Shown piece after piece: positions 5,494 through 15,860 of a DNA stretch of 16,614 bases; position 1 is the first letter of the stretch; every line of letters starts with the position of its first letter. A model generated the notes under the pieces. It worked only from the letters and a program-made list of their open reading frames with translations, did no database searches and was not told the DNA's origin. The stretch is from a virus (lineage: Duplodnaviria; Heunggongvirae; Uroviricota; Caudoviricetes), in IMG/VR virus record IMGVR_UViG_2778261297_000002; one strand, given 5' to 3'. The translations under genes and the position numbers were made by a program.

Positions 5494-5855
5494 CCGATAT
5501 TTTTGAAGTGATAGGCCCATTGTTCCGCAAACTGACCGAAACCTGTATTGCTCACCAGATAGCGGAAACCGGTTCGGCAACCTTGCTGGTGGAAAGCGAT
5601 AAGTATATGGCCCGCTATCGCTTCACGCTGGAGCCGCGCGTAACTGAAAACGTATTGATGAAATATATGATTTTTGGCTGCTTTGAAGAATTCGGGCGCG
5701 ATGAGGGGTTAAGGCGTTTGCGGGATATTCTGCTGACCTGCTTTACCGACGATGGCGATATTAACGAAATGGGGTTGCAGATAGTGAAAAGCTGCCACCT
5801 TGAATACCTGCATGAAGATTTGGAAGCGGATCTTTCCAATAAGGTGCTGCACTGA
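5490..5855 (+). CDS. Hypothetical protein (121 aa)
   Basis: ATGA overlap at 5490-5493; GGAGG at 5476-5480. Confidence 0.6.
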   Translation: MTDIFEVIGPLFRKLTETCIAHQIAETGSATLLVESDKYMARYRFTLEPRVTENVLMKYMIFGCFEEFGRDEGLRRLRDILLTCFTDDGDINEMGLQIVKSCHLEYLHEDLEADLSNKVLH

Positions 5856-7987
5856 TGAAGATGAAAAACGCCCCAAACATTAAGTGTCTGCCAAAGGACA
5901 AGTTTACTGAGGCGATTATTTTTGCGGGGGAAGATGCTTATTCACACGCGCAGCACTGGATCGAGAGCGAGGGGAAAAGGGCGGGGGATGATGTGCCGCC
6001 TGTGTATCTGGGGAAAAAGCAGCTGGAGGAGCTTGAAAGGCTGAATATCATCGATCAGGGGCGTCGTTGCGTACGCGTGATTAGAGCTGGCGAGCTTTCC
6101 GAAATGCAGATAAGCACTATCGCAACCAAACTGGCGCTGGCGGATGTGAAAGAGGCCCGGCTGTTTAATGGCATGTTTGAGCCTCAGCCGAAGGAGAACT
6201 GGACGGATGTACTTCCACGGCTCAGGGAAGATGCCGAGCGTGGGGAAAGTATTGTGGTAAATCTGCCTGTGAAAAAAAGGGAGCCAAAGCCTGAACCGGG
6301 TGATGAACTGAAACCCCGCGTAGAGAGCCGTAACGATGGCCTGTACTGGATCACGCCAAAGGTGGATAAGGACAGCGGAGAAATAATCAATAACGAAACG
6401 TGGCTGTGTTCGCCGCTTGAGGTGGTGGGGTCCGGTAGTGACGGGGCCGAGCGCTATCTCGTTTTGCGCTGGCGTTCGCCACGTGGCCATGAAGATATTA
6501 CCAGGGCGATCCCCTGTGCTGATATCGGTGAGCGTGACGGCTGGCGCTCTCTAAAGGCTGGTGGGGTAAACGTAACGACTAAAAGTACATTCCGGGCAAT
6601 TCTTGCCGACTGGCTACAGCAATGTGGTGCAGGGCAGGAATGGATTATTAGCCATACCACCGGCTGGCATCACGGCGCATACATCATGCCAGATGGTGAA
6701 GTTATCGGTGATCCGGAAATGCCTATTCTCTTTAACGGTCGCAGCGCTGCATCTTCCGGTTATGCCGTGGCTGGAACTGCTGAGAGTTGGCGGGATTCAG
6801 TGGCATATCTGGCAGGAGGCAACCCATCGATGATGCTGGGTGTGGCTGCGGCATTGTCTGCGCCGCTGATCGGGCTGGTGGGCGCTGATGGCTTCGGCGT
6901 CCATTTGTTCGAACAGTCCAGCGCCGGTAAGACTACCACCGCAAATATTGCGAGCAGTATTTGGGGCGAGCCCGACGCTTTGAGGTTGACCTGGTACGGT
7001 ACCGCGCTTGGTATTGCTAACGAGGCAGAGGCGCATAACGACAGCCTGTTACCACTTGATGAGGTAGGGCAGGGCAGCAGTGCTAAAGATGTCGCCACGT
7101 CTGCTTACACTTTGTTTAACGGGGCTGGGAAGTTGCAGGGGGCTAAAGAGGGTGGCAACCGGGAGCTAAAGCGCTGGCGAACTGTTGCGATCAGTACCGG
7201 GGAAATGGATATTGAAACATTCCTGGCTGCTGGTGGAATTAGGGTGAAAGCTGGGCAGCTGGTGCGCCTGCTGAATATCCCCATGGAGAAATCCACGGCC
7301 TTTAACGGGCTGGCTAACGGAAAGGCCCACGCCGATGCACTGAAAGAGTCATGGATTGATAACCACGGCGCAGCAGGGCGTGAGTGGGTAAAATGGCTGG
7401 CAACCCACCAGCAGGAGGCTAAACAGGCTGTGCGGGATGCGCAGACGCGCTGGCGCAGTCTTATTCCGGCTGATTATGGTGAACAGGTTCATCGTGTGGC
7501 TGAGCGCTTCGCCATTCTTGAGGCTGCGCTGGTAACTGGTTCGCCGATAACTGGCTGGAGTGAACAAGCCAGCCGGGATGCTATTCAGCATAGCTTCAAT
7601 GCCTGGGTAAAAGAATTCGGAACAGGTAACAAGGAGCACCAGCAGATCATCGAGCAGTGCGAGGCCTTTCTGAACGCGCATGGTATGAGCCGCTATGCTC
7701 CGCTGCCATACTGCCCGTCAGATATGCCAATTCGTGATATGGCTGGATACCGCGAAAGGGGCAAGCATGATGATTCGCCGATGGTGTTTTATACCTTCCC
7801 TTCTGCGTTCGAAAAAGAGATAGCGCAGGGGTTCAATGCGAAGCAGTTCGCCAGAGTTCTGTCTGAATCTGGAATGTTGACACCCCCAGCAAGCGGCAGG
7901 GGATACCAGCGGAAATCACCGCGTATCGATGGGCGTCAGATTAATGTTTACGTCATTCAGTACCAGCAGGAGGGAACCGAAGAATAA
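5855..7987 (+). CDS. Phage/satellite primase-helicase-like replication protein (P4 alpha-like, P-loop NTPase)
   Basis: 710 aa; Walker A-like FEQSSAGKTTTANIASSIWG in the central region; TGATG overlap with the upstream gene; followed directly by the iteron array. Confidence 0.8.
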   Translation: MKMKNAPNIKCLPKDKFTEAIIFAGEDAYSHAQHWIESEGKRAGDDVPPVYLGKKQLEELERLNIIDQGRRCVRVIRAGELSEMQISTIATKLALADVKEARLFNGMFEPQPKENWTDVLPRLREDAERGESIVVNLPVKKREPKPEPGDELKPRVESRNDGLYWITPKVDKDSGEIINNETWLCSPLEVVGSGSDGAERYLVLRWRSPRGHEDITRAIPCADIGERDGWRSLKAGGVNVTTKSTFRAILADWLQQCGAGQEWIISHTTGWHHGAYIMPDGEVIGDPEMPILFNGRSAASSGYAVAGTAESWRDSVAYLAGGNPSMMLGVAAALSAPLIGLVGADGFGVHLFEQSSAGKTTTANIASSIWGEPDALRLTWYGTALGIANEAEAHNDSLLPLDEVGQGSSAKDVATSAYTLFNGAGKLQGAKEGGNRELKRWRTVAISTGEMDIETFLAAGGIRVKAGQLVRLLNIPMEKSTAFNGLANGKAHADALKESWIDNHGAAGREWVKWLATHQQEAKQAVRDAQTRWRSLIPADYGEQVHRVAERFAILEAALVTGSPITGWSEQASRDAIQHSFNAWVKEFGTGNKEHQQIIEQCEAFLNAHGMSRYAPLPYCPSDMPIRDMAGYRERGKHDDSPMVFYTFPSAFEKEIAQGFNAKQFARVLSESGMLTPPASGRGYQRKSPRIDGRQINVYVIQYQQEGTEE

Positions 7988-10450: not shown

Positions 10451-10636
10451 ATGACACCACGCGAAATAGCTTTATTGACCACCGCCAAACTGGAGCACGA
10501 AGGCCACCAGCTAACCCCGGCAGATCAACGGGAGATAGAACGCTCAGTTAATGCCGATATAGCCCGGCGTGACAAATTCCGCGAAATGATGCGATCACCT
10601 GCCTACCAGTGGAAGAAGCCAGCGCCGCGCAGGTAG
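10451..10636 (+). CDS. Small protein (61 aa), paralog of 14520-14711
   Basis: C-terminus MMRSPAYQWKKPAPRR parallels MTAPAYQWKRPDNPRR in the second copy, with similarity across the whole length; weak RBS. Confidence 0.45.
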   Translation: MTPREIALLTTAKLEHEGHQLTPADQREIERSVNADIARRDKFREMMRSPAYQWKKPAPRR

Positions 10637-10756
10637 ATATGGGATTATTCCACATGTAACTTATGCGTATTAAGCAAATTTCCTTTATTCACCTTTACAG
10701 AATTGTGAGTACGTCAGTATCGTTATCCTTCCGATTCGCATTTATTCAGGATTTGC

Positions 10757-11299
10757 ATGTACCAGCTAAAGATAACCATCCGAGACAGCAAGCCACCTAT
10801 ATGGCGGCGTGTGCTGGTTCCAGAGCAAATCCCCTTTAGTGAACTTCACGCGGTGATCCAGTTGGCTTTTGGCTGGAATGACGAACACCTGTATATGTTC
10901 GAGAAAGGGCGTAAAGGTGATCCCGGTAGCGAGTATCGCGTATGGGGTGAGGATGAAAGCATGGGTAATGCGGCAATCACACCACTATGGGCAGCGCTCC
11001 AGAATGAGGGTGACAGGCTGGTTTACACGTATGACTTTGGCGACTGGTGGGATTGCCTTATTGTGCTGGAGAAGCAAACACACGATACGAGCAATCAGCC
11101 CATTAGCTGCCTGCGTGGGAAAGGCACCACCCCGGCGGAAAACTCAGGCGGCTTGCATGGTTACAATGAATTGCTATTACAGGCCAGAGAGTCTGATAAT
11201 CCTGAGCAGGCCGAGATCCACAATTTCCTGATGCTGGATATTGAACGCCGGGTTTACGACCTGAGCCGCATCAACGACAGATTGCAGGCTATTAACTGA
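10757..11299 (+). CDS. pRiA4b ORF-3-like family protein (180 aa)
   Basis: YQLKITIRDSKPPIWRRVLVP...ELHAVIQLAFGWNDEHLYMF...YTYDFGDWWDCLIVLE matches the conserved pattern of that family (recognised from memory). Confidence 0.65.
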   Translation: MYQLKITIRDSKPPIWRRVLVPEQIPFSELHAVIQLAFGWNDEHLYMFEKGRKGDPGSEYRVWGEDESMGNAAITPLWAALQNEGDRLVYTYDFGDWWDCLIVLEKQTHDTSNQPISCLRGKGTTPAENSGGLHGYNELLLQARESDNPEQAEIHNFLMLDIERRVYDLSRINDRLQAIN

Positions 11300-11651
11300 C
11301 CCGCATGTATTCACCTGATATTGCGTTATCAGCGCCGCCACTATCTCGCACAACGGCACACTGTCCCGGTAAACCGTAGCGCACGACCGTTGCGCTGGTT
11401 TCACCGCCGCGCCGTACCTGACGGGATTCATACACTGTCATTCGCTCAAGCAGTCCACCGGCAACCATGCTTTCGAGCGTGCGGCTGGTTGATTCGAGCT
11501 GGTATCGTTTATCGAACGATCCCATGCCGTGAAGCAGGTAGGCCACGCCCGACACATCGAGTGGCGGAGCGCCGATCTCACCCGATACCCACTCGAGGTT
11601 ATCCGGCTCAAAGTAACTGAGTATCTCTTTTTTGCGGTTGGTCATTCTCAT
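11292..11651 (-). CDS. Winged-helix-like DNA-binding regulator, copy A (119 aa)
   Basis: ILSYFEPDNLEWVSGEIGAPPLDVSGVAYLL suggests a MarR/PadR-like wHTH; AAGGAA upstream; palindromic operator just upstream; paralog at 14708-15067. Confidence 0.65.
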   Translation of the reverse strand: MRMTNRKKEILSYFEPDNLEWVSGEIGAPPLDVSGVAYLLHGMGSFDKRYQLESTSRTLESMVAGGLLERMTVYESRQVRRGGETSATVVRYGLPGQCAVVRDSGGADNAISGEYMRVS

Positions 11652-11666
11652 GGCTGGCAGGTTCCT

Positions 11667-11696
11667 TATTGTGGGATAGCACTATCATACAATAAG
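11667..11696. promoter_or_regulatory. Imperfect 30-bp palindrome, putative operator of regulator A
   Basis: TTATTGTggGATAGcaCTATCatACAATAA, between regulator A and the divergent 11877 operon. Confidence 0.4.
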
Positions 11697-11876
11697 AAGC
11701 GGTGAGGAATGGCTACTTAACTTTCCCCTCCATTTTGTAACGCAATCAGTACCCCCTCATGTAGTCCGCAACTCTTTTAATTAAAATATTTTATCTTGAC
11801 GATTTATTTTATTGATCATAAGTTAACCCCATACAGAAGAAGTATGTACGTTTAACCAGTATCAGGAGGTCAGGAA

Positions 11877-12053
11877 ATGGCAGTCACTAACAAAAAGCCG
11901 ATTCTTGTTGATCAGCCGATTCTCGAAGGGTTACAGCGCCTCCGGGATGATGAATGCCGACGTTCTACCGTAGGCGCAGCCCCAAGCATTCAGGAGCTGG
12001 CGCGTCACCTTTTGCGCCAGGGTATCCACCGGCATGAGGCGGGCAAGAAGTAA
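11877..12053 (+). CDS. Small protein (58 aa), possible RHH-like regulator; first gene of four-gene operon
   Basis: AGGAGG at 11864-11869. Sequence MAVTNKKPILVDQPILEGLQRLRDDECRRSTVGAAPSIQELARHLLRQGIHRHEAGKK has a strand-helix-helix pattern. TTGACG-type promoter candidate at about 11796-11825. Confidence 0.45.
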   Translation: MAVTNKKPILVDQPILEGLQRLRDDECRRSTVGAAPSIQELARHLLRQGIHRHEAGKK

Positions 12054-12079
12054 CTCTGCTGCCCGGAAAGGAGAAACCA

Positions 12080-12856
12080 ATGCCGTTAATGAAATTACCC
12101 ACATGGGCGCTAACAGCGTTCGGTACGAAAGGTAAGAAAAAACAGCCCCAACTATCTGAGGAAAACCCATCCATGTTTGATTTCTCGCATCTGTCAGGCA
12201 AAACCAAAACGAAAGGCGAGTCCGATAACGGTAATGAGCCACTGAAACAGGATAGTGACGATATTCAGGTATATCGCCCAAACAAGCACAGTCGTGGTCA
12301 CAATGTCGCGGTGTCTACTGAGGCTAAGAACAACCCGGTTCTGGCTGTTCGTTTGCTGAAAGAAACAAAGCTTTCATCGAAGAAAATAAAGCAGCAACTG
12401 GCATCGTCGCCGATGGCGCTTTCTGTGTTTACCCAGAAATTTATGGAAGAGAACGATCCGACCTGGGAGTTTCAGGACGACGAAGAGAAAGCCCGAACGG
12501 CGCTGATGTTTTCAACGCAGAACCGTGACGCAAATGGTTACAGCGCTGCCCAGAGTAGCGCTATCAAGGCATTGAAAAAAATGGAAGAGCCTCTGACAGA
12601 GGATGAGGTCAAGGCATTAGCCAACATGACATTGAAGATGCAAAACGAGTACGACCCGATGTCACCTGACAATGTCAATGCTCGCCGCATAGCGGATGAG
12701 GAGTACCGGGAGGAAGTGGCACAGGCCACAGCACGCCGCAATGATCGTATCCGGGCATCTGGTGTGAGCCTGCCGGGAGATACCCGTCGCGTGAATGGCA
12801 AGATTGAAGGGCCAGCAGGCGAAGCCGAACGCCTTAAATCACAGGTTTCTCTCTGA
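12080..12856 (+). CDS. Hypothetical protein (258 aa), paralog of 12865-13359
   Basis: AAGGAG 7 nt upstream. Shares EAKNNPVLAVRLL and DPTWEF...DANGYSAAQSSAIKALKKMEEPLTEDEV with the downstream gene. Confidence 0.7.
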   Translation: MPLMKLPTWALTAFGTKGKKKQPQLSEENPSMFDFSHLSGKTKTKGESDNGNEPLKQDSDDIQVYRPNKHSRGHNVAVSTEAKNNPVLAVRLLKETKLSSKKIKQQLASSPMALSVFTQKFMEENDPTWEFQDDEEKARTALMFSTQNRDANGYSAAQSSAIKALKKMEEPLTEDEVKALANMTLKMQNEYDPMSPDNVNARRIADEEYREEVAQATARRNDRIRASGVSLPGDTRRVNGKIEGPAGEAERLKSQVSL

Positions 12857-12864
12857 GAGGTGCG

Positions 12865-13359
12865 GTGGTGAGCATTATGAACTTTCAGCATCTCAATCCG
12901 CCGCAGCCCGATGCGCAGGCATATGGCTTTTCCGGGCGCCGTATGCAGCGCATGCATCGACTTCAGCAGTCTGTTGAAGACGAGCAACCCCCTGAACGTC
13001 GCCATTCTGATGCACATCTGATCGCGGTGAGAAAAGAGGCCAAACAAAACCCGATACAGGCACTTCATCTTATCGCTGAAGGGATACCACACCAGCGTGC
13101 CATCGCCTTACTGCAGGGCAGCGTTCGGCAGCTCAGTCGTTTTACCCGTCGGGCCATGGAGAAAGCCTATCCTGGCTGGGAACTCCTTGATGCCGAAGAC
13201 CAGAACATGGCGGCATTCCAGCACAGCATGATTAACGGCGACACCAACGGCTATCGGGCTGGTTTTAACGCTGCTCTGTCGGCGCTGGAGAAGTTTGTAG
13301 AGCCAGTTACGTTTGACGATATCGTGAATAGCGTTAATTCGCTGGTGGAGGAAGTATGA
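12865..13359 (+). CDS. Hypothetical protein (about 160 aa), paralog of 12080-12856
   Basis: EAKQNPIQALHLI and YPGWEL...DTNGYRAGFNAALSALEKFVEPVTFDDI parallel the upstream gene. Start ambiguous (GTG 12865, GTG 12868 or ATG 12877). Confidence 0.65.
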   Translation: MVSIMNFQHLNPPQPDAQAYGFSGRRMQRMHRLQQSVEDEQPPERRHSDAHLIAVRKEAKQNPIQALHLIAEGIPHQRAIALLQGSVRQLSRFTRRAMEKAYPGWELLDAEDQNMAAFQHSMINGDTNGYRAGFNAALSALEKFVEPVTFDDIVNSVNSLVEEV

Positions 13360-13535
13360 GTAATTCATTCGATTTTGAGCTGGTTGCTGATGACAGGGCC
13401 AGTGCTGCCATTGACGACATTAATGAGGCTATTCGCAATCTTGGACCGCATCTGGAGAAGACGCGGGAAAGCCTCAGGCTGGGCGGCCTTCCGCCGTCGC
13501 CTTACAAAAATGGGTCCTTCCTGAGCCTTTTGTAA
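13356..13535 (+). CDS. Small acidic protein (59 aa), last gene of operon
   Basis: ATGA overlap with the upstream stop at 13356-13359; hand translation MSNSFDFELVADDRASAAIDDINEAIRNLGPHLEKTRESLRLGGLPPSPYKNGSFLSLL. Confidence 0.4.
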   Translation: MSNSFDFELVADDRASAAIDDINEAIRNLGPHLEKTRESLRLGGLPPSPYKNGSFLSLL

Positions 13536-13586
13536 GGCACGGGCATTGCGCGCCGCGGTGTTTTCCTAGCTACAGGTTTTGAATTT

Positions 13587-13792
13587 GATTGACACTTTAC
13601 ACTAAGGTTTTTCCGGTTGCTGGGTTGTTAACTCCCTTGAGCGGCAAGGGATTACCGGGAATAACCGCCGATCCTGATTGACAGTTAGATTGACACTTTC
13701 TGCCTGAAAAGTGTCAACCGGACAGAAAAAGTGTCAAGTAGCTGGCGCTTTACAGTTTGATTGACAGTTTCCCGCCGGTGGGTTGACACATT
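13587..13792. repeat. Array of 7 TTGACA(C/G) motifs in both orientations upstream of the 13826 gene
   Basis: Forward copies at 13589, 13678, 13690, 13761, 13783; inverted at 13711 and 13731. Includes the palindrome TTGACACTTT-ctgcctg-AAAGTGTCAA. Confidence 0.6.
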
Positions 13793-13825
13793 GCCTGCCA
13801 ATGATAATTACCCAGGAGAAAAAAT

Positions 13826-14413
13826 ATGTCGCTGATGAGTGTGAGTCAGTACGCTAAACACGCAGGGCTAAGTCGTCAGGCCCTCTACAACTGGGAGGCT
13901 AAGCAAGGTTTCCCCGCACGAGTGGACGGCAAGATTGACCAACTGGCCTGTGATGCCTACCTGGCCCGATACCGCAGCGCCAGTGACCCGCGCACGAAGA
14001 ATGCCAGGGGGAAAACCAAATCTGCTCCAGCCGGTCAGGCGCAGGGGAGTGCGCTGGTGGAAATGAGTGTTGCGGAGATTAAGCGCATCATAGTGTCAGG
14101 TGCCGGTAAGGTGGCCGGGATGGATCCGGACGAACGAGCCCAACTGGCTGCAAAGGCCGTAGAGCTGTTTGTAAGCGAAGGGCCTTATAACCCTCCTGTA
14201 ACGTTCGGCGGCTACCGGCTGTCGATTGTTGAAACGCCAGATGTTGAAATCGGGCAGATCATCGCGGGCGGCGCGTTCGGCCTGTCTGCATATGATGTGA
14301 TTTACGAGTGCCGGGATTACACCCTGACTCTCATGAGCGATGAAACCGAAGAAACAGCCATGCGGAGAGTGATCCCTTCGTTGCTGTATGCCCTGGCCGA
14401 CGATACCGACTAA
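13826..14413 (+). CDS. HTH-containing protein (195 aa), N-terminal MerR/Nu1-like helix-turn-helix
   Basis: N-terminus SVSQYAKHAGLSRQALYNWEAKQGFP looks like a phage HTH; AGGAG 7 nt upstream; strong terminator downstream. Confidence 0.65.
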   Translation: MSLMSVSQYAKHAGLSRQALYNWEAKQGFPARVDGKIDQLACDAYLARYRSASDPRTKNARGKTKSAPAGQAQGSALVEMSVAEIKRIIVSGAGKVAGMDPDERAQLAAKAVELFVSEGPYNPPVTFGGYRLSIVETPDVEIGQIIAGGAFGLSAYDVIYECRDYTLTLMSDETEETAMRRVIPSLLYALADDTD

Positions 14414-14519: not shown

Positions 14520-14711
14520 GTGTTAAAACAGAAGAAAATCGAGGCGGTAATTGAAGAGCTGGCCCGCCTGCAGGGGAATGAGCTGAATGCCACCGATATG
14601 CTGGAGTTACGTTGCAGGGTTGCGGGAACGCTCGTTGCTAAAGAACGGCACCGCCGGAGGATGACGGCACCAGCCTACCAGTGGAAGAGGCCAGATAATC
14701 CACGTCGTTAA
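14520..14711 (+). CDS. Small protein (63 aa), paralog of 10451-10636
   Basis: GTG start with AGGA 8 nt upstream; shares the C-terminal PAYQWK(K/R)P...PRR motif; stop overlaps the convergent regulator B. Confidence 0.45.
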   Translation: MLKQKKIEAVIEELARLQGNELNATDMLELRCRVAGTLVAKERHRRRMTAPAYQWKRPDNPRR

Positions 14712-15067
14712 ACGACCCGCACATATTCGCCTTCTATCGTGCCGTCTGCACCTCCCGTATCGCGTACCACTGAAACGGTACCCGGCAGGCCGTAACGGAC
14801 AACGGTAGCGGTCGTCTCGCCGCCCATAACGATACTCCGCGCCTCCCTGCTCCGGTACCTCTCCAGCAACCCATCTTTCACCATTGCTTCCAGCGTTCGT
14901 CTGGTGGATTCGAGCCAGTGCCGGTTGTCTTCGAGGCCTGTCCCATACAGCAGGTACGCCACGCCGGATACATCAAGGGGAGGTGCGCCGATCTCACCCG
15001 TCACCCAGTCGCGGTTATCCGGTTCGAAGTAGCTGAGTATCGTCTTTTTGCGGCTGGTTAGTCTCAT
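14708..15067 (-). CDS. Winged-helix-like DNA-binding regulator, copy B (119 aa from ATG 15067)
   Basis: MRLTSRKKTILSYFEPDNRDWVTGEIGAPPLDVSGVAYLL aligns along its length with copy A; AAGGA upstream of ATG 15067 (the six-frame ORF extends to 15103). Confidence 0.65.
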   Translation of the reverse strand: MRLTSRKKTILSYFEPDNRDWVTGEIGAPPLDVSGVAYLLYGTGLEDNRHWLESTRRTLEAMVKDGLLERYRSREARSIVMGGETTATVVRYGLPGTVSVVRDTGGADGTIEGEYVRVV

Positions 15068-15080
15068 AGTGGGAGATTCC

Positions 15081-15106
15081 TTATTGTATGACAGTGCTAT
15101 CATACA
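15081..15106. promoter_or_regulatory. Palindromic putative operator of regulator B
   Basis: TTATTGTATGAcagtgcTATCATACA with arms TGTATGA / TCATACA; same position relative to the start as operator A. Confidence 0.4.
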
Positions 15107-15320
15107 TTAGTAATTCATGACAATCCGCCGTCATGGCTGGTGGTCACAGTCATGATAAATGTGCTCAGCCCATTCCCGGTTGAGTATGGGGGACGCATTC
15201 AACATCGAGGCATTTATAACTAATTGATGGTTATGTTTATGGAATTTGATGTTTTATAGCAGTAGGATGAAATCGCATAGACTATGCACAGCTATTACTC
15301 TGGATATACAAGGAATTTAT

Positions 15321-15860
15321 ATGTCATTAGCTAACAAAATGAAACTACAAGATCTTAAAGCAAAAATTGAAGAATTCAGCGCTCCTCGGCGCGAGTTGTT
15401 GAATAAACAAATAAATGATGCTGCTACTGCTATTCAGAAAGATGTTTTGGAATTTTTTAAATCTAAAGGATTTACAATTACAGGCCAGACTCCTAAGTTG
15501 AAAGCCACTTATAACGGCGGCCTTGATACTCTCATTGATTTCTCAAAACTCACAGGAAGCTTCTTTGGTTGTGATGGTGCAGTTGAGTTCAAATATGAAA
15601 ATAAAGAATTTTCGCTTAATTACTCTATAAAACGTGGAAAGTCCCCGGAGCGTAATTCTTGGGCTGGTAGGCCTGATGAAATGCTACTAAAAGAAATTGA
15701 GTTCTATGAGAAAGAATTATTGCCGTATTTAGAGTCAACTGGTGTTTCAGACCTAAGCGGCGAGGTGGTTTTGTTCTCAATGGTTAAAAACGCAACAGGT
15801 AAACCAACTACGCAGAAGTATGAAAGTGTTGAGCAAGCACTGAACAGCCTCATGGATTAA
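15321..15860 (+). CDS. Hypothetical protein (179 aa), AT-rich cargo gene at the right edge
   Basis: AGGAA 5 nt upstream of ATG 15321 (ORF track extends to 15246); sampled lines about 27-38 percent G+C; terminator follows. Confidence 0.6.
   Translation: MSLANKMKLQDLKAKIEEFSAPRRELLNKQINDAATAIQKDVLEFFKSKGFTITGQTPKLKATYNGGLDTLIDFSKLTGSFFGCDGAVEFKYENKEFSLNYSIKRGKSPERNSWAGRPDEMLLKEIEFYEKELLPYLESTGVSDLSGEVVLFSMVKNATGKPTTQKYESVEQALNSLMD

What the first reader, a model, noticed from the sequence alone, without database searches (positions are those of the whole stretch)
11652..13535. Four-gene operon with two paralogous proteins, divergent from a palindrome-controlled regulator
Genes 11877-12053 (RHH-like), 12080-12856, 12865-13359 and 13356-13535 are tightly linked. 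The two larger proteins share blocks (EAK.NP...L and ..WE...D.NGY.A...A..AL.K..EP.T.DE) but I recognise no known family. The operon sits in the accessory half of the satellite, where such elements carry helper-interference or anti-phage cargo. This is my strongest candidate for an undescribed system.
Basis: partly seen in the sequence, partly recalled or inferred. Interest (0 to 1): 0.7.

Follow-up and report, generated by a model that had tools for sequence, protein, structure and literature searches.

The report
Satellite operon mimicking helper phage scaffold
This is the conserved virion-assembly operon of an E. coli phage satellite, not optional cargo: it encodes a small regulator-like protein, two uncharacterised paralogs that resemble the helper phage's head-scaffolding protein, and the dead stump of a satellite tape-measure gene.

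Summary
The four ORFs exist and are tightly linked, and the two larger proteins are true paralogs (39% identity, E=5e-22). The interpretation needs revising.

1. The fourth ORF is not a gene of its own. It holds the first 44 codons of a satellite tape-measure-protein (TMP) gene. A 1,704-bp deletion fused these to the non-coding flank of the cos site.
2. The conserved unit is a trio (small protein, A, B). It occurs in every related island examined across about 12 Enterobacterales genera. It always reads towards cos and a TerS-like HTH gene. A full TMP is present in some relatives.
3. The trio is core, not cargo. The variable defence slot (Kiwa, Shosta, PDC systems in relatives) lies just upstream of it.
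4. A and B match no known family or fold. They do share an N-terminal FxF[AS]HL motif and a Nu3-type segment with the scaffolding protein of the likely helper. That helper is a lambda-head/Mu-tail prophage with the same cos, present in all three E. coli genomes that carry the island.

Best reading (confidence about 0.4): A and B are scaffold mimics that remodel or block helper capsid assembly. The mechanism is inferred, not shown.

The parts
11724..11876 (+). Upstream non-coding leader and presumed promoter region of the operon. This is the left edge of the block shared with related islands.
   Evidence: Nucleotide homology to the Raoultella islands L006 and L005 begins at window 11724 and 11775 (87-92% identity). 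No consensus sigma-70 site passed the scan. The promoter is inferred only.
11877..12053 (+). 58-aa small protein, the first gene of the unit. It is possibly a ribbon-helix-helix regulator.
   Evidence: A homolog lies upstream of A in all 18 loci that have upstream sequence (E 1e-17 to 1e-33). dN/dS is 0-0.14. The AF2 model (pLDDT 76) shows an extended N-terminus plus helices 13-29 and 38-55. There is no Pfam or PDB match.
12080..12856 (+). Paralog A (258 aa). It has a disordered N-terminus carrying the FDFSHL motif, then an all-helical core (residues 70-258).
   Evidence: The family has 65 clusters, all annotated hypothetical and all Enterobacterales. The AF2 core has pLDDT above 90. No fold match was found. 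Similarity to the helper Nu3-type scaffold is reported.
12877..13359 (+). Paralog B (160 aa from ATG 12877, or 164 aa from GTG 12865). MNFQHL lies at the N-terminus, followed by the same helical core as A without the C-terminal extension.
   Evidence: 39% identical to A, E=5e-22. B is always immediately downstream of A. dN/dS is 0.15-0.23. The RefSeq start is given.
13356..13535 (+). Remnant of a satellite tape-measure-protein gene. Codons 1-44 (13356-13487) are the TMP N-terminus. The deletion junction lies at 13483-13486 (GCGG microhomology). Codons 45-59 are read-through of the cos flank.
   Evidence: phrog_2276 E=1e-9. 64% identical to the BZS1 TMP N-terminus. There is a 1,704-bp deletion relative to L005, whose TMP is 609 aa and ends at L005 13106. 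Full-length TMPs follow B in L004, L005, L006, L007 and L010.
13499..13560 (+). cos site. It has a cosQ-like left flank and a 12-nt cohesive-end sequence, GCATTGCGCGCC, at 13543-13554.
   Evidence: The 12 nt are identical to the annotated cosL of Serratia phage BZS1, and the flank matches the BZS1 right end. The site is conserved in six related islands. Matches covering this cos segment account for nearly all of the 363 E. coli genomes that hit the 2.1-kb query. The one such locus opened (EC2641) is a helper-type prophage.
13589..13795 (.). Array of TTGACA(C/G)TT repeats in both orientations, in the cosB position. They are presumed binding sites for the TerS/HTH complex.
   Evidence: Repeat families D2 and D5 and inverted pairs I5-I12. 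The array is conserved in L005. Binding is inferred by analogy with Rpp/cosB (PMC6739421).
13826..14413 (+). 195-aa HTH protein resembling the N-terminal DNA-binding domain of the small terminase. It is Rpp-like by position, and it is the downstream neighbour of the operon in all relatives.
   Evidence: phrog_57 terminase small subunit, E=2e-9. 28% identical to BZS1 Nu1. It follows B or the TMP in the relatives. It has no sequence match to solved Rpp structures, so Rpp membership is untested.
11292..11696 (-). Neighbour, not part of the unit. This is the 119-aa divergent gene plus a 15-nt imperfect palindrome (11665-11696) upstream of its start. It lies in the variable defence slot.
   Evidence: The palindrome is reported. 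A 70%-identical paralog with a similar palindrome lies at 14708-15109. The gene is not adjacent to the operon in L004-L008.

Best explanation
The window is a PICI-type phage satellite, about 16 kb, inserted between gcd and hpt. The region 11.7-14.4 kb is its virion-hijacking module: small protein, A, B, (TMP), cos, TerS-like HTH protein.

A and B are satellite-specific paralogs derived from, or mimicking, the N-terminal two-thirds of the helper phage's Nu3-type head-scaffolding protein. They share its N-terminal FxF[AS]HL peptide, a variable linker and the segment 'S-x-EAK-x-NP-x-LA-xx-L-xx-ET-x-LSS...LASSP'. Their C-terminal helical domain is different.

The proposed mechanism is as follows. 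When the helper is induced, A and B (possibly as a heterodimer) occupy the partner sites of the helper scaffold. Candidates are the major capsid protein, the portal and the separate S49 protease. This would either redirect procapsid assembly to a satellite-sized shell or poison helper head assembly. Known satellites do this with CpmB, Rcm, Sid and TcaP.

Ancestrally the same operon also supplied an alternative tape measure protein for the helper's Mu-type tail. In this E. coli island a deletion has destroyed that gene.

Shown: gene structure, paralogy, conservation, the deletion, cos identity with the helper type, co-residence with the helper prophage, and the statistical sequence similarity to the scaffold. 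Inferred: binding partners, any effect on capsid size, and the role of the small protein as the operon's regulator.
For: Module anatomy and conservation:
- The small-protein homolog lies upstream of A in 18 of 18 loci.
- A is followed directly by B in all loci with downstream sequence, except one deletion fusion.
- The operon always reads into cos and the TerS-like HTH gene.

Helper identity:
- The cos cohesive end is identical to that of phage BZS1, which has a lambda-type head and a Mu-type tail.
- The same helper type is an E. coli prophage.
- Its head module occurs in only 58 of 5,426 E. coli genomes. These include all three genomes that carry this island, at 99.8-99.9% identity.

The helper protein (BZS1 p06 and its E. 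coli equivalent L027 21646-22236) is a Nu3-type scaffold:
- It sits between the S49 protease and the decoration gene.
- A Nu3 motif HMM built without it scores it at E=3e-11.
- hhalign against lambda Nu3 gives P=0.003.

Similarity of A and B to that scaffold:
- The A/B profile searched against 986 helper ORFs gives the scaffold as top hit, E=0.009, with both motifs co-linear.
- The reverse search against 3,943 ORFs gives A orthologs as the top 9 non-self hits, E 9e-4 to 0.01.
- hhalign of A/B against the scaffold family scores 25.8, P=0.005. None of 300 column shuffles reach it.
- hhalign of A/B against the Nu3 motif alignment from 11 diverse phages plus p06 gives probability 64%, P=7e-5. The maximum of the shuffled null is 19.3 against the observed 31.7. 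Without p06, P=0.007.
- F-x-H-L within the first 45 residues occurs in only about 0.5% of unrelated ORFs.

Precedent: satellite scaffold mimics CpmB and Rcm (PMC12409344). The size ratio of satellite to helper (16 kb to 45 kb) is typical of capsid-remodelling satellites.
Against: - The scaffold similarity is remote: about 35 aligned motif columns plus a 4-6 residue peptide. HH probability is only 7-64%. The direct comparison with lambda Nu3 is not significant, although it falls in the predicted register.
- The shared part is N-terminal and central. In CpmB and Rcm the mimicry is of the capsid-binding C-terminus.
- In the A model this segment is part of a well-folded domain, whereas Nu3 is reported to be intrinsically disordered (my recollection of the literature, not checked here).
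- The best-studied E. coli PICI, EcCICFT073, is packaged in phage-sized capsids (PMC6739421). A trimer of this island (about 48 kb) could fit a helper head.
- A and B are physically coupled to a tape-measure gene in several relatives. In Xenorhabdus they lie next to a chaperone plus a TMP. This points to tails rather than heads.
- There is no experimental data of any kind.
Confidence: 0.4

Rival explanations
1. A and B are tail-assembly factors that serve the satellite's own tape measure protein. They could act as a dedicated chaperone or selector that favours the satellite TMP in helper tails, or as a restriction factor against the helper TMP in the manner of PLE11 Rta.
For: - B is translationally coupled (ATGA overlap) to the TMP gene or its stump.
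- Full-length TMPs follow B in L004, L005, L006, L007 and L010. A chaperone plus a TMP precede A in L023.
- Other tail cargo sits beside the unit: a tail fibre plus Caudo_TAP in L003, a glycine-rich fibre-like protein in L011, and a minor tail protein in L004.
- The position immediately upstream of a TMP is where tail chaperones normally lie.
- PLE satellites encode an alternative TMP that is selectively incorporated by an unknown mechanism (PMC11838301).
Against: - A and B are kept intact and under purifying selection in at least seven lineages that have lost the TMP or never had it: the window, L003, L008, L009, L011, L013 and L029. These lineages still keep cos and the HTH packaging gene. 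So the function does not need a satellite TMP, and it cannot be a blanket block of the helper TMP.
- There is no similarity to any tail chaperone family or fold.
- There is no programmed-frameshift architecture.
- There is no homolog in 50,697 phage genomes.
Confidence: 0.2
2. The operon is an undescribed anti-phage defence or helper-interference cargo system carried in the accessory part of the satellite.
For: - A and B are unknown proteins with no family assignment.
- PICIs do carry defence genes in internal hotspots (PMC11364771).
- Interference with the helper would itself protect the population.
Against: - The unit is invariant across the whole island lineage rather than variable.
- The true variable slot, with Kiwa, Shosta, PDC-M02 and PDC-S31, lies just upstream of it.
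- There is no PADLOC match of note.
- It is not related to Tai, which is a single gene with phage homologs. A has no phage homolog.
- The family is tiny: 46 representatives in 1.84 billion proteins. It is confined to satellites of one helper type, unlike broadly spread defence systems.
Confidence: 0.1
3. A and B are regulatory or anti-regulatory proteins. For example, they could modulate helper late transcription or satellite induction. Their resemblance to the scaffold would then be a chance helix-turn-helix-like motif.
For: - The shared segment (NP-x-LA-xx-L...T-x-LSS...I-xx-L) looks like a helix-turn-helix.
- Weak scattered HTH-type hits appear: HTH_23 for B, and WH_Rok for 9 of 32 A orthologs. 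All are below threshold.
- The operon begins with a putative DNA-binding protein.
Against: - No HTH family reaches significance.
- The reciprocal top-hit behaviour with the helper scaffold, together with the independent N-terminal motif, is hard to ascribe to chance.
- The location is in the packaging module rather than the regulatory module.
Confidence: 0.1

Closest known systems
SaPI CpmB and SaPIpT1028 Rcm (satellite internal-scaffold mimics that redirect helper capsid size)
   Same: They are satellite-encoded, helical, and lie in the packaging/interference operon. They have partial sequence resemblance to the helper's scaffolding protein. Their satellite is about one third of the helper genome (PMC12409344).
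   Different: There is no sequence or fold relationship to A or B. In CpmB and Rcm the mimicry is of the capsid-binding C-terminal part of the scaffold. Here the resemblance is to the N-terminal peptide and the central Nu3 motif. Here there are also two paralogs. No small capsids have been shown.
Lambda gpNu3 and the C-terminal scaffold domain of S49 head proteases (helper p06, phrog_6382)
   Same: They share the motif segment EAK-x-(N/G)-x-x-LA-xx-L-xx-T-x-(L/M)S...LA-x-x-P. With the helper's own scaffold they also share the N-terminal FSFAHL peptide.
   Different: A and B are encoded in a satellite, not in a head-gene cluster. They lack the scaffold's acidic linker and its C-terminal tail. 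They have an unrelated WEF...D-x-NGY helical domain. Statistical support is only moderate.
PLE alternative tape measure protein / chimeric tails, and Rta (Vibrio cholerae PLE-ICP1)
   Same: Relatives of this island encode their own TMP, 36% identical to the helper's over about 400 residues (the rest aligns only at the extreme C-terminus) and of similar length. It lies next to proteins of unknown function (PMC11838301).
   Different: The satellite family (PICI, Enterobacterales) and the helper type are different. In this window the TMP is deleted to a 44-codon stump. Neither A nor B resembles Rta, TAC or BhuB by any search done here.
Rpp-cos packaging redirection of E. coli PICIs (EcCICFT073)
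   Same: The downstream neighbour is an HTH protein resembling the TerS DNA-binding domain. It lies beside a cos with helper-type cosQ/cosN and a distinct repeat-rich cosB.
   Different: There is no detectable sequence match to solved Rpp proteins. The helper here is a lambda-head/Mu-tail myophage rather than lambda or phi80. EcCICFT073 is not reported to carry the A/B genes (not checked here).
Tai tail-assembly-inhibition systems of PICIs and prophages
   Same: They are PICI-borne and act on virion assembly.
   Different: Tai is a single gene in the variable slot next to pri, with most homologs in phages. A has no homolog in the phage collection searched, in which phi80 is held, at E up to 1. 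It lies in the conserved module.

Membership tests
Nu3-type phage head scaffolding domain | Conserved motif segment (E-x-x-R-I-x-x-I...EAKGRE-x-LA-xx-LA-xx-T-x-MS-x-E-x-AK-xx-LAAAP) | tested here: inconclusive
   hhalign of the A/B profile against the motif alignment gives probability 64%, P=7e-5. With the helper family left out, P=0.007. No shuffled control reaches either score. hmmsearch E-values are 9e-4 to 1e-2. The direct comparison with lambda Nu3 is not significant.
Nu3-type phage head scaffolding domain | Encoded in the head-gene cluster between or within the protease gene and the decoration/major capsid genes | tested here: not met
   A and B lie in a satellite, upstream of cos. No head genes are present in the window.
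Nu3-type phage head scaffolding domain | Binds the major capsid protein and is required for procapsid assembly | not testable with these tools
   This needs biochemistry or genetics.
Satellite capsid-size redirection proteins (CpmB/Rcm type) | Satellite-encoded protein with partial similarity to the helper scaffold, located in the packaging/interference operon | tested here: met
   The similarity is moderate.
Satellite capsid-size redirection proteins (CpmB/Rcm type) | Necessary and sufficient for small capsids; binds the helper major capsid protein | not testable with these tools
   No EM or interaction data are available. The related PICI EcCICFT073 uses phage-sized capsids.
Tail assembly chaperone (gpG/GT, Mu gp41 type) | Homology or fold of a known TAC family, with two products sharing an N-terminus through a programmed frameshift | tested here: not met
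   There is no TAC hit in Pfam or PHROGs. The model is all-helical with no PDB match. A and B are separate paralogous ORFs. The real helper chaperone (Mup41, phrog_166) is unrelated to them.
Tail assembly chaperone (gpG/GT, Mu gp41 type) | Located immediately upstream of the tape measure gene | tested here: met
   This holds in L004, L005, L006, L007 and L010, and vestigially in the window.
Tape measure protein (ORF4) | Full-length TMP homologous along its length to phage TMPs | tested here: not met
   Only the first 44 codons are TMP-derived, and the remainder has been deleted. Relatives keep 609-643-aa TMPs.
Ribbon-helix-helix regulators (Arc/MetJ/CopG) | About 50-aa beta-alpha-alpha fold recognisable by profile or structure | tested here: inconclusive
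   The secondary-structure pattern fits: extended residues 1-12, then helices 13-29 and 38-55. No Pfam, NCBIfam or Foldseek PDB match was found. The model is a monomer from a single sequence.
Known anti-phage defence systems (PADLOC), including Tai | Match to a defence-protein model, or homology to Tai proteins of phages such as phi80 | tested here: not met
   PADLOC gives only a marginal DrmD fragment hit for A (E=6e-4, 16 bits). There is no homolog of A in the phage collection.
Rpp (redirecting phage packaging) - neighbour gene 13826-14413 | Homology to characterised Rpp proteins; heterodimer with the helper TerS | tested here: inconclusive
   It is similar to the TerS N-domain and lies next to cos. 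It has no sequence match to solved Rpp structures. Interaction is not testable here.

The most novel reading that the evidence does not exclude
A and B are a new class of scaffold decoys built from the helper's own Nu3-type scaffolding protein. With the satellite-encoded tape measure protein kept in relatives, this enterobacterial PICI lineage would then reprogramme both the head and the contractile tail of a lambda-head/Mu-tail helper. It would yield satellite-specific virions with a remodelled capsid and a chimeric tail. That combination has not been described for Gram-negative PICIs.
Probability: 0.25. Interest if true: 0.7.

Novelty: new variant of a known kind. Interest (0 to 1): 0.55.

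Why it matters
For Gram-negative PICIs the only described hijacking device is Rpp, and the model element does not remodel capsids. A conserved pair of scaffold-like proteins would be a second, unexplored layer of helper exploitation in Enterobacterales satellites. A satellite tape-measure gene is also ancestrally linked to this pair. Satellite-encoded TMPs and chimeric tails have so far been demonstrated only in Vibrio PLEs, so this would extend the idea to another satellite class.

The work also gives a directly testable natural system. The island and its probable helper prophage sit together in three sequenced E. coli strains. TMP-plus and TMP-minus variants of the same module exist in nature.

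Finally, it moves the search for novel defence cargo in this window to the neighbouring slot (10451-11651) and to the 3' end (14520-15860).

Tried and rejected
- Family searches for all four proteins in Pfam, PHROGs, PADLOC and NCBIfam, and for 32 A orthologs individually in Pfam. Nothing consistent was found. The ART-PolyVal and DrmD hits are isolated and below threshold, so I dropped them.
- PDB sequence search with the A/B profile returned only designed or calmodulin-like noise.
- Exhaustive profile search of 1.84 billion representatives found only 46 proteins, essentially the same family. There were no informative fusions.
- I first read ORF4 as an in-frame internal TMP deletion that kept both termini. 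I rejected this once the L005 TMP was seen to stop at 13106, before the right-hand junction.
- Tai membership is rejected.
- The idea that the divergent 119-aa gene controls the operon is rejected as a conserved feature.
- Foldseek on the small-protein model could not confirm RHH.
- The Nu3 motif HMM without the helper family did not reach significance by hmmsearch (E about 1.4). Only the profile-profile comparison did.
Full report
**Context**

The 16.6-kb window is 100% identical to a chromosomal island of E. coli EC09 inserted between gcd and hpt. The island has:
- a tyrosine integrase (1-1227);
- a DUF927 primase (5855-7987);
- an AlpA-like gene and an Icd-like gene;
- no capsid genes and no tail genes other than the tape-measure stump described below.

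This is the make-up of a PICI-type phage satellite.

**Checking the observation**

The four ORFs are present and closely packed. RefSeq calls all four hypothetical proteins. The two larger proteins, A (12080-12856) and B (12877-13359; GTG 12865 is an alternative start), are genuine paralogs. They are 39% identical over 109 residues, E=5e-22.

Family alignments show a shared architecture:
- an N-terminal F-x-H-L peptide;
- a variable linker;
- a core of about 105 residues with invariant H70, H74, E81, P86, W129, E130, D150 and G153.

The small first protein has a secondary-structure pattern compatible with ribbon-helix-helix. No search confirmed that.

**The fourth ORF is a stump**

Its first 44 residues match the N-terminus of tape measure proteins: phrog_2276, E=1e-9, and 64% identity to the TMP (Mup42) of Serratia phage BZS1. 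In related islands a full TMP gene follows B. Its length is 609 aa in Raoultella L005 and 617 aa in Pectobacterium L004. In L004 it carries an SLT domain and is 36% identical to the BZS1 TMP over 400 residues.

Aligning the window with L005 shows a clean 1,704-bp deletion with 4-bp GCGG microhomology at window 13483-13486. The L005 TMP stops at 13106, just before the right junction. So the last 15 codons of the window ORF are read-through of non-coding DNA.

That non-coding DNA is the cos site. Window 13505-13554 matches the right end plus the 12-nt cohesive end (GCATTGCGCGCC, 13543-13554) of BZS1, and it is conserved in six related islands.

An independent deletion in IS-flanked copies on Klebsiella variicola plasmids removed the TMP and the last codons of B. 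In Morganella the N-terminus of B is fused to the C-terminus of the TMP. The TMP was therefore probably ancestral and has been lost repeatedly.

**What the conserved unit is**

A scan of one genome per species (100,044 species) found 21 loci, all in Enterobacterales. Further loci came from contig look-ups.
- A homolog of the small protein precedes A in 18 of 18 loci that have upstream sequence.
- B follows A directly wherever downstream sequence exists.
- The operon always reads towards cos and a 195-aa HTH protein that resembles the DNA-binding domain of the small terminase.

Nucleotide homology with the Raoultella islands covers window 11724/11775-14684 at 87-92%. The rest of the island is much more diverged. 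So the module is small protein, A, B, (TMP), cos, HTH protein, and it is a core feature of this satellite lineage.

The slot just upstream of the small protein is variable and holds defence systems in relatives:
- Kiwa in L004;
- Shosta in L011;
- PDC-M02 and PDC-S31 in L005.

In the window that slot holds a 61-aa ORF, a PRiA4_ORF3 protein and the divergent 119-aa gene with its palindrome.

**The helper**

BZS1 and Citrobacter phage phiNP combine a lambda-type head and cos packaging system with a Mu-type contractile tail. An E. coli prophage of this type carries the same cos. Its head module occurs in only 58 of 5,426 complete E. coli genomes. All three genomes that carry this island are among them, at 99.8-99.9% identity. 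The three strains may be related, so this is not three independent events.

**The lead on function**

I searched the A/B profile against all ORFs of the two helper genomes. The top hit was the 196-200-aa protein encoded between the S49 head protease and the decoration protein (E=0.009). Two co-linear matches were found:
- the N-terminal peptide, helper TFSFAHLIG against A MFDFSHLSG and B MNFQHL;
- a segment of about 50 residues, helper SKHAAANPSLAASLAFNTGMSSAAAINVLASSAP against A STEAKNNPVLAVRLLKETKLSSKKIKQQLASSP.

That helper protein is a Nu3-type scaffold:
- a motif HMM built from 11 diverse phage protease/Nu3 proteins, without it, scores it at E=3e-11;
- it aligns with lambda Nu3 at P=0.003.

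Controls on the A/B-scaffold similarity:
- The reverse search with the scaffold family against 3,943 ORFs gave A orthologs as the top nine non-self hits.
- hhalign of A/B against the scaffold family scored 25.8 (P=0.005). None of 300 column shuffles reached it.
- hhalign of A/B against the broad Nu3 motif alignment gave probability 64%, P=7e-5. With the helper family removed, P=0.007. The shuffled maxima were well below both scores.
- F-x-H-L near the N-terminus occurs in about 0.5% of unrelated ORFs.
- The direct A-lambda Nu3 alignment is not significant, but it falls exactly in the register predicted by transitivity.

I regard the resemblance as real but remote, with about two-thirds confidence. 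Its functional meaning is inferred.

**Most likely mechanism**

A and B keep the parts of the helper scaffold that presumably contact a partner, and they replace its C-terminal part with a different helical domain. This is the logic of satellite scaffold mimics such as CpmB and Rcm. In those proteins, however, the mimicked part is the C-terminal one.

The best-supported reading is that A and B compete with, or co-assemble with, the helper scaffold to remodel or block helper procapsid assembly. The adjacent HTH protein redirects packaging to the satellite cos. The ancestral TMP customised the tail, as shown for Vibrio PLEs.

The main rival is a tail-related role tied to the TMP. Against it, A and B persist intact in many TMP-less islands that still keep cos and the packaging gene. 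A defence-cargo role is unlikely given the invariance of the unit and its restriction to one satellite lineage.

**Novelty and verdict**

The protein family is undescribed and tiny: 46 representatives in 1.84 billion. As a whole the locus is a new variant of a known kind, the satellite virion-hijacking module. It is not a new defence system. It offers a testable candidate for capsid manipulation in Gram-negative PICIs and evidence for PICI-encoded tape measure genes.

Noticed in passing
window 10451-11651: This slot corresponds to the defence hotspot of related islands (Kiwa, Shosta, PDC-M02/S31 there). Here it holds a 61-aa ORF, a PRiA4_ORF3-domain protein (180 aa, Pfam E=2e-42) and a divergent 119-aa protein of no known family. 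This is the better place to look for novel cargo.
   Followed up: partly
window 14520-15860: A second copy of the small-ORF plus divergent-protein pair is present: a 63-aa ORF, and a 131-aa protein 70% identical to the 119-aa one. A 204-aa protein follows (phrog_14564, unknown function). Both divergent genes have a similar imperfect palindrome just upstream of their start (11665-11696 and 15082-15109).
   Followed up: partly
window 13499-13800: There is a complete cos region. The cosQ-like flank has an 11-bp perfect inverted repeat (13499-13538). The 12-nt cohesive end matches phage BZS1. About eight TTGACA(C/G)TT repeats in both orientations sit in the cosB position.
   Followed up: yes
E. 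coli EC09 NZ_CM169492.1 11557-14566 (also 1368KP and 2022CK-00450): All three E. coli genomes that carry this island also carry the rare lambda-head/Mu-tail prophage (58 of 5,426 genomes). Its cos and scaffold match the island's module. It is a probable natural helper.
   Followed up: partly
L004 9236-11792 (Pectobacterium aroidearum island): This island carries a full satellite TMP with an SLT lytic-transglycosylase domain. It also carries a 213-aa minor tail protein that is 72% identical to a BZS1 protein encoded just upstream of the phage cos. The satellite's cos-proximal region is therefore syntenic with the helper's.
   Followed up: partly
L023 7093-9435; L011 11199-12241; L003 6301-7442: Other islands place different tail cargo beside the A/B unit. 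Xenorhabdus hominickii has a tail chaperone plus a 643-aa TMP upstream of A. Hafnia has a glycine-rich fibre-like protein between B and cos. Xenorhabdus has a tail fibre plus Caudo_TAP upstream.
   Followed up: no
L020 9351-11167 (Morganella morganii): This copy is degenerate. The small protein is fused to a primase zinc-ribbon fragment. The N-terminus of B (YSFAHL...) is fused to the C-terminal 130 or so residues of a TMP.
   Followed up: no
L029-L031 (Klebsiella variicola plasmids, 230-375 kb): An IS1/ISL3-flanked fragment holds only small protein, A, B, cos, the HTH protein and a small ORF. It sits on large plasmids next to a RES-Xre toxin-antitoxin pair. An independent deletion has removed the TMP.
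   Followed up: no
L027 21529-22236 and protein P0185: The helper scaffold reading frame is open for 117 nt upstream of its ATG, overlapping the end of the S49 protease gene in another frame. One database entry (P0185, 306 aa) joins an S49 domain to the whole scaffold. This hints at a protease-scaffold fusion product, as with lambda C/Nu3.
   Followed up: no
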